Made by a program: the position numbers | Source: Malacoraja senta | Taxonomy: Eukaryota | Reading direction: 5' to 3' | Length of the DNA: 47,815 nt | NCBI GenBank assembly: GCA_038087875.1 | Contig: JAXLNO010001955.1 | Location: forward strand, 124,001 to 171,815 | Part shown: in pieces, positions 3,001-6,000 of the stretch | Layout: every line of letters starts with the position of its first letter | Position numbering within the stretch: position 1 is the stretch's first letter

Positions 3001-6000
3001 TTGGGTGAGGGAGAGGGATGCCAGTCTGAGCAGTGAACTGGGAATCACTGCTTTTCAGTTAGCTTTGAGCTGTTTCTTTATCAAAAAGAAACTTTATGTT
3101 TCTGTACAATGTTTACATATTCTGTTGTGCTGCAGCCAGTAAGAATTTCAATGTTCTATCTGGGACATCTATCTTCTTCTACACTATTACTAAAACTCTC
3201 ACCTTGACCACTGCGTTGTAGACTAAGGTATCCTATATCGCTAGGGTTTTTAAGCCACCTTACTCACCGTTCTCTTCTGCTCCAAGCGCACCAAGTTTTG
3301 TTCCGATCGGTGAAATATGAGGAAAGTTATTGGTCTGTTATTCGCCAGGACGGCAACGCCCCTTCCGGCTCCTGCTGTCAATCACTGGCCACGAGAATAA
3401 CGCTGAAGGAGCGGGGTCTGTGTTCTGTGAGCGGGGGCCCACACTGCCCCCTCCCACATACACCCCCTCCCCGCACAAGCCCCACCACACCCCCATCCCC
3501 TCACCCCCACCCTCCCCTCACCCACTCCTCTCCCACACATTACTCCACACTCCCCTCCCCCACACTACCCCCACCACACACACCACCCCCTCCAAAATAC
3601 ACCCCTTTCCGCATGCACCCCCTCCCCTACCCGCACAACTCCGCCCCCCAGGCCCCCTCCCCCTGCTACAGAACGCTCCCGTCGTTGAGTTGGGGGAACA
3701 GGTGAGTGGTGGAATATTGCGTTGGGGGACCAGCCCTCCCGTGTGAACATGGGACCCAACGGGTCCCACTTAGTCTAGTATGACAATAAAACTCTCTTGA
3801 CTCTTGACTTGATGACTGATTAGACTGCAAAATAATTCAACTACAAACAATTTGTAATAAAAACAGAGCATTCAGGAGATACCCAGCAAGTCAGGCAGCA
3901 TCTGTGCAGGATAAAACACAGCTCACATTTCAGGATGATCTTTCAGCAACAAATATTATCAAACCTGCTGAGTATTTTCCATGATTAACTATTGGAGTCA
4001 CTTACCACCCATGAATACCCACTGACAGCAGCTTCTTCTTCACTTGAAACCTCTCCTTCATAGGGTCCAAAATGAACGCCCCTGGGAATAACCTTCCCTT
4101 CATTCCAGACGCCAAGACCAGCTTTACAAATTTTGGACGTGGCAATGCTGAGACCCTCTGGAAGAGTTAAACGTGCTCTATCTGGGTGATTGGAATCAAC
4201 GACAGTGTCCTTCATAAAGACTGGTGGGCCGTGCACAGGGCATTCTTCAATAAAAAAATTCTCTCAGGCTTCACAAACTGAAACAGAAAATGCAAAATTA
4301 AGAACTAATCAGGGTGTTGGCATTATTGAAAGTGGCTGGACTTTGTACTGAAAATGCTCAATGATCCACAAAAGATGTTATCTTTTTAGAAGTATCTCAG
4401 AATATAATACTACCAGAAGATTACTCTTCTGAGGAAGCATTCAAAATGTGAGAGGTTAATAGTGGCCAATCTGTAAAGAATCCCTTCATGATGTCTGTCT
4501 GTCACCATGAATATCTTGGGGGGAAGATGCCGCTATTTAATTCCAAATGGCAGCTGTGTTGAACTATATGGATATTGATAAACATCAAGAGAAAAATCCT
4601 GACCACAGAGTATAATTTTAAATATAGTAATAACAAGCATGATGTAATGCAGAGAGTATGTTTCACGGTAACATGGGTACATGGTGTCAACTCCAAGAAA
4701 TGTGTGTTGAAGGATAAAAGTCTATTATGTGAACTAATGAAGCATTTGTAACCAGGCAGATGAATTAAGACCATAGACATAGACAATAGGTGCAGGAGTA
4801 GGCCACTTGGCCCTTCGAGACATTCAATGTGATCAAGGGTGATCATCCACAATCACTATCCCGTTCCTGCCTTCTCCCCGTATCCCTTGTCTCCGCTAGC
4901 CCTCAGAGCTCTATTTAACTCTCTCTTGAATGCATCCAGTGAATCGCCCGCCACTGCCTTCTGAGGAAGAGAATTCCATAAATTCACAACTCTGGGTGAA
5001 AATGTTTTTCCTCATCTCAGTTCTAAATAGCCTACCCCTTGTTCTTAAACTGTGGCCCCTGGTTCAGGACTCCCTGAACATTCTCAAATTAGGAGAGCAA
5101 AATGGCACACAATACTCCAGGTGTGGTCTCAACATGGACATTTATAACTACAGAAGGACCTCTTTGCCACTATACTCAAATCCTCTCGGCAGGAAACATG
5201 TTCCCGATATTCGGGGAGTCCAGATCCAGTTTAAGAATAAGGGGTAGAACATTTAGAATGGAGATGAGGAAAAACTTTTTAGACAATACACAATAGGTGC
5301 AGGAGTAGGCCATTCGGCCCTTCGAGCCAGCACCGCCATTCAATGTGATCATGGCTGATCATCCCCAATCAGTACCCCGTTCCTGCCTTCTCCCCATATC
5401 CCGACCGCTATTTTTAAGAGCACTATCTAGCTCTCTCTTGAAAGCATCCAGAGAACCTGCCTCCACCGCCCTCTGAGGCAGAGAATTCCACAGACTCACC
5501 ACTCTGTGAGAAAAAAATGTTTCCTCGTCTCCGTTCTAAATGGCTTACTCCTTATGCTTAAACTGTGGCCCCTGGTTCTGGACTCCCCCAACATCGGGAA
5601 CATGTTTCCTGCCTCTAGCGTGTCCAAGCCCTTAACAATCTTATATGTTTCAATGAGATGCCCTCTCATCCTTCTAAACTCCAGAGTGTACAAGCCCAGT
5701 TGCTCCATTCTCTCAGCATATGACAGTCCCGCCATCCCGGGAATTAACCTTGTAAACCTACGCTGCACTCACTCAATAGCAAGAATGTCCTTCCTCAAAT
5801 TAGGGGACCAAAACTGCACACAATACTCCAGGTGTGGTCTCACTAGGGCTCTGTACAACAGCAGAAGGACCTCTTTACTCCTATATTCGATTCCTCTTGT
5901 TATAAAGGCCAACATGCCGTTTGCTTTCTTCACTGCCTGCTGTACCTGCATGCTTACTTTCATAGACTAATGTACAAGGACCCCCAGATCCCGTTGTACT

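What the first reader, a model, noticed from the sequence alone, without database searches (positions are those of the whole stretch)
4006..4277. PRDM9-like exon with a stop codon exactly at a zinc-knuckle cysteine
The exon is well conserved (splice sites intact, FGPYEG catalytic tyrosine retained, no indels), yet the second Cys of CxxC is TGA. This suggests a recently inactivated PRDM9 copy or a null allele, relevant to whether this lineage uses PRDM9-directed hotspots. A weak GAG acceptor ending at 4263 would skip 15 nt in frame, removing the stop and two zinc ligands, so a knuckle-less isoform is possible.
Basis: partly seen in the sequence, partly recalled or inferred. Interest (0 to 1): 0.65.

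Follow-up and report, generated by a model that had tools for sequence, protein, structure and literature searches.

The report
Skate PRDM9-like exon with premature stop
This is a real exon of a skate gene from the PRDM9 family (the protein that places meiotic recombination hotspots) carrying one premature stop codon, most likely a recently disabled spare copy and so of modest interest.

Summary
On the minus strand, 4277..4006 is one exon with a strong acceptor and a gtaagt donor. It encodes the pre-SET zinc knuckle and the first half of a PR/SET domain. The PDB match is PRDM9 at 116.5 bits against PRDM11 at 70.3. An in-frame TGA sits where 27 of 28 aligned cartilaginous-fish homologs and 84 of 84 other vertebrates have the second knuckle Cys.

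The window is not human. The closest proteins come from skates and rays, led by Amblyraja radiata 'PRDM7' at 93%.

Apart from the stop, the exon is undamaged. It keeps all 35 columns that are invariant in cartilaginous fish. It has changed less than its nearest annotated relative.

No other PRDM9 exon lies in the 43.5 kb upstream or the 4 kb downstream. Skates carry several PRDM9-family copies.

My best reading is a real, recent nonsense mutation in one family copy, either a young pseudogene or a null allele. It is not evidence that the lineage lost PRDM9.

The proposed 15-nt-skipping acceptor would usually create another stop at the junction. No SECIS element was found. A base-call error cannot be excluded without reads.

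The parts
4006..4277 (-). Single exon of a PRDM9/7-family gene. It encodes the pre-SET zinc knuckle (3 of 4 ligand codons present, the second replaced by an in-frame TGA) and the first half of the PR/SET domain, including FGPYEG. It starts with two bases of a split codon and ends in phase 0.
   Evidence: sequence and frame. (PRDM9 116.5 bits, PRDM11 70.3 bits). (PRDM2_PR 1.2e-10). (homologs and column table).
4278..4300 (-). Acceptor: polypyrimidine tract and AG (AG at 4279-4278).
   Evidence: The 20 nt before the AG are 75% pyrimidine. Protein similarity of 8 of 10 queries starts at 4275 or 4278.
3996..4005 (-). Donor gtaagtgact (GT at 4005-4004).
   Evidence: The homologs continue with a different exon (ISKANN...) that is not found in the window.
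4278..4311 (-). End of the upstream intron, which the Amblyraja radiata protein model P0003 translates as FLNFAFSVSV. That model uses an AG 30 nt further upstream (tag at 4311-4309). In the window the same 10 codons read identically.
   Evidence: P0003 sequence. (HSP 4308..3988, 107 aa, 88.8%)..

Best explanation
The window comes from a skate (order Rajiformes; species not resolved). The feature is a genuine genomic exon, still flanked by introns, of a PRDM9/7-family gene. It encodes the pre-SET zinc knuckle and the N-terminal half of the PR/SET methyltransferase domain.

One single-base change has turned the codon of the second zinc-binding Cys into TGA. A transcript using this exon would end translation before the SET domain and any zinc-finger array. 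Because the stop lies 258 nt upstream of the exon's donor, such a transcript would be a candidate for nonsense-mediated decay. The copy would then make no methyltransferase.

The exon shows no other damage and no faster change than its nearest annotated relative. The lesion is therefore young: a recently disabled family copy or a null allele caught in the assembled haplotype.

Skates hold several PRDM9-family copies, and the closest relative is a finger-less 'PRDM7'-type model. So this says little about whether the lineage uses PRDM9-directed hotspots.

Shown: the exon, its family, the stop, its alignment to the Cys column, and the lack of other defects. Inferred: that the stop is real rather than a base-call error, the decay of the transcript, and whether the rest of the gene exists outside the window.
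For: - Family: PRDM9 chains score 114-116.5 bits and PRDM11 70.3 bits. Pfam gives a PR domain.
- Stop column: Cys in 27 of 28 aligned cartilaginous-fish proteins and in 84 of 84 aligned other vertebrates. The same C-x2-C-x7-C-x2-H run is present in the crystallised human and mouse PRDM9 chains. A review calls the pre-SET a zinc knuckle that organises the SET domain (PMC6116924, passage).
- Condition of the exon: the window residue is absent from the 29 cartilaginous-fish proteins at only 2 of 90 columns, namely the stop and one Cys where the others have Arg, Gln or Pro. All 35 columns invariant in those 29 are kept.
- Rate of change: the window differs from every outgroup by no more than P0003 does. 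The counts are 8 vs 12, 9 vs 14, 9 vs 14, 12 vs 13, 12 vs 13, 13 vs 14, 19 vs 20 and 16 vs 16.
- An ordinary mutation path: 28 of the 89 sense codons, including the 3 other Cys codons, are one step from a stop.
- Multi-copy family: 7 Rhinoraja longicauda proteins were found, and they form a clade of their own. The window is sister to A. radiata P0003 in 233 of 300 bootstraps.
- A Rhinoraja paralog (P0030) has Arg at the same Cys column, so loss of this ligand recurs in skate copies.
- The neighbouring MHC class I-like gene also carries a frameshift in one exon.
- The seven-base T run inside the exon is in frame, which argues against a sloppy assembly.
Against: - No reads or second haplotype could be consulted, so a base-call error or heterozygosity cannot be told apart from a fixed change.
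- The complete lack of other damage is equally what an intact gene with one wrong base would show.
- None of the other exons (KRAB-like, SSXRD-like, the exon ending in DDDYL, the second SET half, the fingers) is in the window. I therefore cannot say whether this is a whole gene with very long introns or a partial duplicate.
- No expression data were available.
- No DNA of relatives was available, so no synonymous/non-synonymous test was possible.
Confidence: 0.7

Rival explanations
1. Assembly or base-call error. The gene is intact and the codon is really a cysteine codon.
For: The exon is otherwise flawless. It keeps 35 of 35 columns that are invariant in cartilaginous fish, has no indels and has intact splice sites. 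It has changed less than its annotated sister P0003.
Against: Substitution errors are rare in finished assemblies compared with the frequency of pseudogenes in multi-copy families (general knowledge, not tested here). The seven-base T run in the exon is in frame. The neighbouring MHC class I-like gene also has a frameshift in one exon, at a place that is not a homopolymer run. No annotated protein identical to this exon turned up in either length class, the best being 93% and 74%. That is what one expects if annotators treated the locus as non-coding.
Confidence: 0.15
2. Dead-on-arrival partial duplicate. Only this exon and some flanking intron were copied into an MHC class I region, and the stop is a neutral change in a fragment that never worked.
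For: No other PRDM9 exon lies in the 43.5 kb upstream or the 4 kb downstream, even at E<=50 with word size 2. The upstream space is taken by LINE fragments and by an MHC class I-like gene on the other strand, from 21.6 to 47.2 kb. The only weak KRAB-like hit (1921-1832, E 0.1) lies inside a five-copy interspersed repeat and has no Pfam match.
Against: Introns of about 18 kb exist in this very window, between MHC exons alpha1 and alpha2, so missing exons may simply lie outside it. A fragment free of constraint should drift at least as fast as its parent, yet the window's exon is closer to every outgroup than P0003 is. That holds unless the duplication is very young.
Confidence: 0.2
3. The TGA is bypassed or decoded. 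Either it is read as selenocysteine or read through, or an alternative acceptor removes it and gives a knuckle-less isoform.
For: A TGA aligned with Cys in all homologs, inside an otherwise conserved exon, is the classic signature of a selenocysteine codon (general knowledge). The alternative acceptor would stay in frame and open for the 4 of 29 homolog forms whose junction residue is Val or Leu.
Against: There is no SECIS match in the window at the gathering score (0 hits) or among the 7 matches at E<=5, although the 3' UTR is probably outside the window. No PRDM protein is a known selenoprotein (recalled). With the usual Phe junction (23 of 29) the alternative acceptor gives T+AG, a stop. 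Its pyrimidine tract is weak, 60% against 75%, and it sits 15 nt behind a strong acceptor. It would also remove two of the four zinc ligands.
Confidence: 0.03
4. Old relic exon of a long-dead PRDM9 gene.
For: It is the only PRDM9 exon in 47.8 kb, in a repeat-rich setting.
Against: It is 90-91% identical to manta and stingray proteins. It has only 2 of 90 columns with a residue unseen in cartilaginous fish, has no indels, has intact splice sites, and has changed less than P0003.
Confidence: 0.04

Closest known systems
PRDM9 of mouse and human (solved PR/SET structures 4c1q, 6nm4, 4ijd)
   Same: The same pre-SET C-x2-C-x7-C-x2-H run followed by the PR/SET fold. All 86 residues align without gaps at 114-116.5 bits. 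The Tyr of FGPYEG is kept. That this is the Y276 discussed in PMC5519329 (passages) is my inference from numbering.
   Different: The second knuckle Cys codon is a stop. Identity is only about 60%. No KRAB, SSXRD, second SET half or finger array is seen in the window.
Amblyraja radiata 'probable histone-lysine N-methyltransferase PRDM7' (P0003, 324 aa)
   Same: The nearest relative: 93% over the exon, sister in 233 of 300 bootstraps, and sharing Asn at column 6, which is seen in only 1 of 29 cartilaginous-fish proteins. Its model even translates the last 30 nt of the same intron identically.
   Different: It has Cys at the stop column. It carries 3 changes of its own at conserved columns, including Ser at a Gly that is invariant in the other 113 proteins. 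The model ends after the SET domain without fingers. Whether it is the ortholog or a paralog is unknown, because the window's species is unresolved.
Rhinoraja longicauda PRDM9-like paralogs (P0005, P0007, P0008, P0010, P0011, P0021, P0030)
   Same: Skate PRDM9-family copies, several on one 10.9-Mb contig, 81-87% identical to the exon. P0030 also lacks the second knuckle Cys, with Arg in its place.
   Different: They form their own clade. Most carry finger arrays. None has a stop, since all are annotated proteins.
PRDM11 (3ray)
   Same: A PR domain preceded by a related N-terminal stretch.
   Different: It scores 70.3 bits against 116.5 for PRDM9, so the exon is not PRDM11.
PRDM9 pseudogenes and partial PRDM9 genes of other vertebrates (canids, some fishes, elephant shark)
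   Same: These are PRDM9-family genes disabled or truncated in particular lineages. Duplications are reported in cartilaginous fish (PMC5519329, passages).
   Different: Here there is a single lesion in one exon of one copy. Loss from the lineage is not shown.
Selenoproteins with a CxxU redox motif
   Same: TGA in the place of the second Cys of a CxxC.
   Different: This is a structural zinc site, not a redox motif. No SECIS was found in the window.

Membership tests
PRDM9/PRDM7 clade of PR/SET proteins | PR/SET domain closer to PRDM9 than to PRDM11 or other PRDMs | tested here: met
   PRDM9 114-116.5 bits, PRDM11 70.3, PRDM4 28.5, PRDM2 about 20; every named hit among the best 120 is PRDM9/7 or -like, apart from 10 with generic, hypothetical or other names (P0019, P0021, P0022, P0024, P0029, P0042, P0046, P0068, P0108, P0112).
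PRDM9/PRDM7 clade of PR/SET proteins | Pre-SET zinc knuckle C-x2-C-x7-C-x2-H with all four ligands | tested here: not met
   columns 1, 12 and 15 are kept, and column 4 is a stop codon where 111 of 112 aligned proteins have Cys.
PRDM9/PRDM7 clade of PR/SET proteins | Catalytic tyrosine in FGPYEG (Y276 of human PRDM9) | tested here: met
   column 72: Tyr in the window, in 29 of 29 and in 85 of 85. The link to Y276 is my inference and from PMC5519329.
PRDM9/PRDM7 clade of PR/SET proteins | Second half of SET with Y341 and Y357 | tested here: inconclusive
   tblastn with 10 shark and ray proteins found no such exon in the window. Only 4 kb lie downstream, so it may be outside.
Complete PRDM9 (hotspot-directing form) | KRAB-related and SSXRD domains upstream | tested here: inconclusive
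   None in the 43.5 kb upstream. No KRAB match in Pfam on 181 six-frame ORFs. They may lie outside the window or be absent.
Complete PRDM9 (hotspot-directing form) | C2H2 zinc-finger array in the last exon | tested here: inconclusive
   No finger array in the window. The nearest relative, P0003, has none either.
Complete PRDM9 (hotspot-directing form) | Open reading frame | tested here: not met
   One in-frame stop in the exon.
Processed pseudogene (retrocopy) | Exons fused, no introns or splice signals | tested here: not met
   The similarity stops at an AG acceptor and a gtaagt donor. The flanking intron is shared with the A. radiata model.
Selenoprotein gene | In-frame TGA aligned with Cys in homologs | tested here: met
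Selenoprotein gene | SECIS element in the 3' UTR | tested here: inconclusive
   No SECIS in the window at the gathering score or at E<=5. The 3' UTR is probably outside the window.

The most novel reading that the evidence does not exclude
The TGA is not a defect but is decoded, as selenocysteine or by programmed read-through. This skate copy would then make a PR/SET protein whose pre-SET knuckle binds zinc through a C-x2-U pair. That would be a new vertebrate selenoprotein, and the first with selenocysteine in a structural zinc site.

A less exotic reading is also still open, at about 0.1. The slowly evolving batoid-type copy may be the main PRDM9 ortholog of this species and may have just been knocked out, making the animal or the species a natural PRDM9-deficient vertebrate.
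Probability: 0.01. Interest if true: 0.8.

Novelty: new member of a known kind. Interest (0 to 1): 0.25.

Why it matters
PRDM9 decides where meiotic crossovers fall in many vertebrates, and it has been lost or truncated repeatedly. Cartilaginous fish are thinly covered in the literature. The two surveys I read in passages mention them only briefly, and no paper in the library holds both 'PRDM9' and 'Amblyraja'.

A freshly disabled copy in a skate adds one data point on the turnover of PRDM9 paralogs in batoids. It also flags that this family is multi-copy there. It does not, by itself, tell how skates place their hotspots. If the stop proved to be the only PRDM9 of the conservative type in the species, it would become a useful natural case.

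Tried and rejected
1. I looked for the rest of the gene with tblastn, using 10 shark and ray PRDM9 proteins against the window. I ran it at E<=1e-3 and at E<=50 with word size 2. Only this exon hit.
2. A weak KRAB-like hit at 1921-1832(-), E 0.1, was rejected. It has no Pfam match and it overlaps a five-copy interspersed repeat (family D14).
3. Pfam on 181 six-frame ORFs of 72 aa or more, plus two short ones, gave only LINE-type endonuclease and reverse-transcriptase pieces, MHC class I and the PR domain.
4. The 'near'-length protein search for read-derived ORFs carrying this exon with or without the stop found nothing above 74% identity.
5. I tried to identify the species through the MHC alpha3 exon. 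The best hits were Rhinoraja longicauda at 92% and Leucoraja erinacea at 88%, which does not decide it.
6. SECIS was searched at two thresholds and none was found.
7. Tandem or local duplication of the exon was checked and none was found.
8. Literature on PRDM9 in skates yielded nothing specific.
9. DNA of relatives could not be fetched, because the open contig collection holds only bacteria and archaea. So no dN/dS, synteny or copy count was possible.
The PRDM9 exon and the MHC exon were each searched on their own.

Full report
WHAT IS THERE. The feature lies on the minus strand. After a pyrimidine-rich tract and an AG at 4279-4278, the exon runs from 4277 down to 4006 and is followed by gtaagt. 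Of the three frames, only the one starting at 4275 is meaningful. It reads Cys-Glu-Ala-stop and then 86 open codons that contain FGPYEG and end in SGYSWV. The TGA is at the coordinates the finding names. The window contains no N.

FAMILY. The 86 codons after the stop match the solved PR/SET domains of mouse PRDM9 (4c1q, E 4.5e-33, 116.5 bits) and human PRDM9 (6nm4 and 4ijd, 114 bits) end to end without gaps. PRDM11 (3ray) reaches 70.3 bits and other PRDMs less than 30. Pfam finds the PR domain (PRDM2_PR, 1.2e-10). This places the exon in the PRDM9/7 clade and not in PRDM11. 'PRDM7' labels outside primates are automatic names; that is recalled, not tested.

ORIGIN. The contig is not human, so it fell under no restriction. 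Named mammalian PRDM9/7 proteins are 58-65% identical. The best hits are batoids:
- Amblyraja radiata, 93%
- Hemitrygon akajei, 91%
- two Mobula species, 90%
- seven Rhinoraja longicauda proteins, 81-87%

An MHC class I exon at the other end of the window is 92% identical to a Rhinoraja longicauda protein and 88% to a Leucoraja erinacea one. The source is a skate, but I could not resolve the species.

THE STOP AND THE KNUCKLE. I projected 29 named cartilaginous-fish proteins and 85 other named vertebrate proteins onto the exon by tblastn. Six unnamed hits were left out.
- The stop column holds Cys in 27, Arg in 1 (Rhinoraja P0030) and is unaligned in 1 of the 29. It holds Cys in 84 of the 85, with 1 unaligned.
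- Together with columns 1, 12 and 15 it forms C-x2-C-x7-C-x2-H.
- The same run is present in the crystallised human and mouse chains.
- A review describes the pre-SET as a zinc knuckle that organises the SET domain (PMC6116924, one passage read).

That the coincidence falls on a Cys is not remarkable in itself. Cys codons are one step from TGA, and 28 of the 89 sense codons of this exon are one step from a stop.

STATE OF THE EXON. Apart from the stop, the window's residue is unseen among the 29 cartilaginous-fish proteins at only one column, a Cys where the others have Arg, Gln or Pro. All 35 columns invariant in those 29 are kept, and there are no indels.

In a neighbour-joining tree of the exon, the window is sister to the A. 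radiata protein P0003 in 233 of 300 bootstraps. The Rhinoraja copies form a clade of their own.

A relative-rate count shows no extra change on the window's branch. The differences from eight outgroups are 8, 9, 9, 12, 12, 13, 19 and 16 for the window, against 12, 14, 14, 13, 13, 14, 20 and 16 for P0003. P0003 itself carries Ser at a Gly that the other 113 proteins keep. An old relic is thus excluded. The lesion is young, or it is not real.

WHAT IS NOT THERE. tblastn with ten shark and ray PRDM9 proteins finds only this exon, both at E<=1e-3 and at E<=50 with word size 2. The 43.5 kb upstream and the 4 kb downstream hold no KRAB-like, SSXRD-like, 'DDDYL', second-SET or finger exon. The one weak KRAB-like hit (1921-1832, E 0.1) has no Pfam match and lies in a five-copy interspersed repeat, so I take it for chance.

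The upstream space holds LINE-type endonuclease and reverse-transcriptase fragments. It also holds an MHC class I-like gene on the plus strand, whose alpha1, alpha2 and alpha3 exons are spread over 25.6 kb. Introns of 18 kb therefore occur here, and the missing PRDM9 exons may simply lie outside the window. Alternatively this may be a partial duplicate. I cannot decide between these.

THE PROPOSED RESCUE ISOFORM. The exon begins with two bases (TT) of a split codon. The residue at this junction is Phe in 23 of 29 cartilaginous-fish homologs, Val in 3 and Leu in 1, and 2 did not match the pattern. Phe requires a T from the upstream exon.

With the acceptor 15 nt further in, the split codon becomes T+AG, which is again a stop. 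Only the rarer Val or Leu forms would stay open. That acceptor also has a poorer pyrimidine tract (60% against 75%) and sits directly behind a strong site. It would remove two of the four zinc ligands. I consider the isoform unlikely. The upstream exon is not in the window, so this is inference.

RECODING. A TGA aligned with Cys is the classic mark of selenocysteine. Rfam finds nothing at gathering scores (0 matches). None of the 7 sub-threshold matches at E<=5 is a SECIS. The 3' UTR is probably outside the window, so this reading is not fully closed. I give it about 1%.

BEST READING. This is a real, recent single-base nonsense change in one genomic copy of the skate PRDM9/7 family. Translation would end before the SET domain. 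The stop lies 258 nt before the exon's donor, which by the usual 50-55-nt rule would expose a spliced transcript to nonsense-mediated decay (established knowledge, not tested).

Whether it is fixed (a young pseudogene) or one allele cannot be told. A base-call error remains possible, at about 0.15. Several PRDM9-family copies exist in skates, duplications in cartilaginous fish are in print (PMC5519329, passages), and the nearest relative is a finger-less model. The exon therefore does not bear on whether the lineage uses PRDM9-directed hotspots.

LITERATURE SEEN.
- PMC5519329: passages only.
- PMC6116924: one passage.
- PMC8892340: one passage.
- Search listings.
- 'PRDM9' together with 'Amblyraja': 0 papers.

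Supplements, which may list cartilaginous-fish orthologs, were closed.

LIMITS. No reads, no RNA-seq and no DNA of relatives were available. Unnamed protein hits that might stem from human samples were neither fetched nor used.

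Noticed in passing
window 21612-47238 (+): exons 21612-21872, 39933-40209, 46963-47238: An MHC class I-like gene lies head to head with the PRDM9-like exon. Its alpha1, alpha2 and alpha3 exons are 90-93% identical to a Rhinoraja longicauda class I protein, with introns of about 18 kb and 6.7 kb. The alpha2 exon matches in two different frames, meaning one frameshift, so this gene may also be a pseudogene. No leader, transmembrane or cytoplasmic exon was found in the window.
   Followed up: partly
P0003 (Amblyraja radiata protein) against window 4278-4311: The public A. 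radiata 'PRDM7' model translates the last 30 nt of the intron (FLNFAFSVSV) by using an AG 30 nt upstream of the usual acceptor. It lacks a finger array and has Ser at an otherwise invariant Gly. The model, or the gene, may itself be aberrant.
   Followed up: partly
P0030 (Rhinoraja longicauda PRDM9-like, 673 aa): This annotated skate paralog has Arg at the same knuckle Cys column. It also has further changes at conserved columns (Asp for Gly in KAGLGVW, Tyr for His before FGPYEG), and it skips the 'DDDYLF' exon.
   Followed up: no
window 7128-10920: LINE-type endonuclease and reverse-transcriptase fragments lie on opposite strands, meeting near 9.8 kb. This coincides with a sharp flip of GC skew at about 10 kb.
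   Followed up: no
window 27537-28913 and 36419-37794: Two copies of one element sit in inverted orientation, 77-82% complementary over about 1.3 kb. One copy carries a 356-aa ORF with a zf-RVT match. The other carries the longest ORF of the window (517 aa, 36234-37784, +), which has no Pfam match, in an AT-rich stretch with GC 0.33.
   Followed up: no
window 1896-2155, 15296-15606, 19770-20080, 42827-43115, 45367-45662: A SINE-like interspersed family has about five copies (families D14, D16, D17 and D19). A second family with a shared core is present in nine or more copies (D4, D7).
   Followed up: no
window 31337-31992: A tandem array of units of about 59 and 117 nt lies in the most GC-rich part of the window, GC 0.52.
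   Followed up: no
window 29876-29956 (+) and 19198-19277 (-): Hairpins score below threshold against the miRNA families mir-515 (37.6 bits, gathering 68) and mir-1270 (34.2 bits, gathering 90). Both overlap interspersed repeat copies, so they are probably repeat-derived or chance.
   Followed up: no
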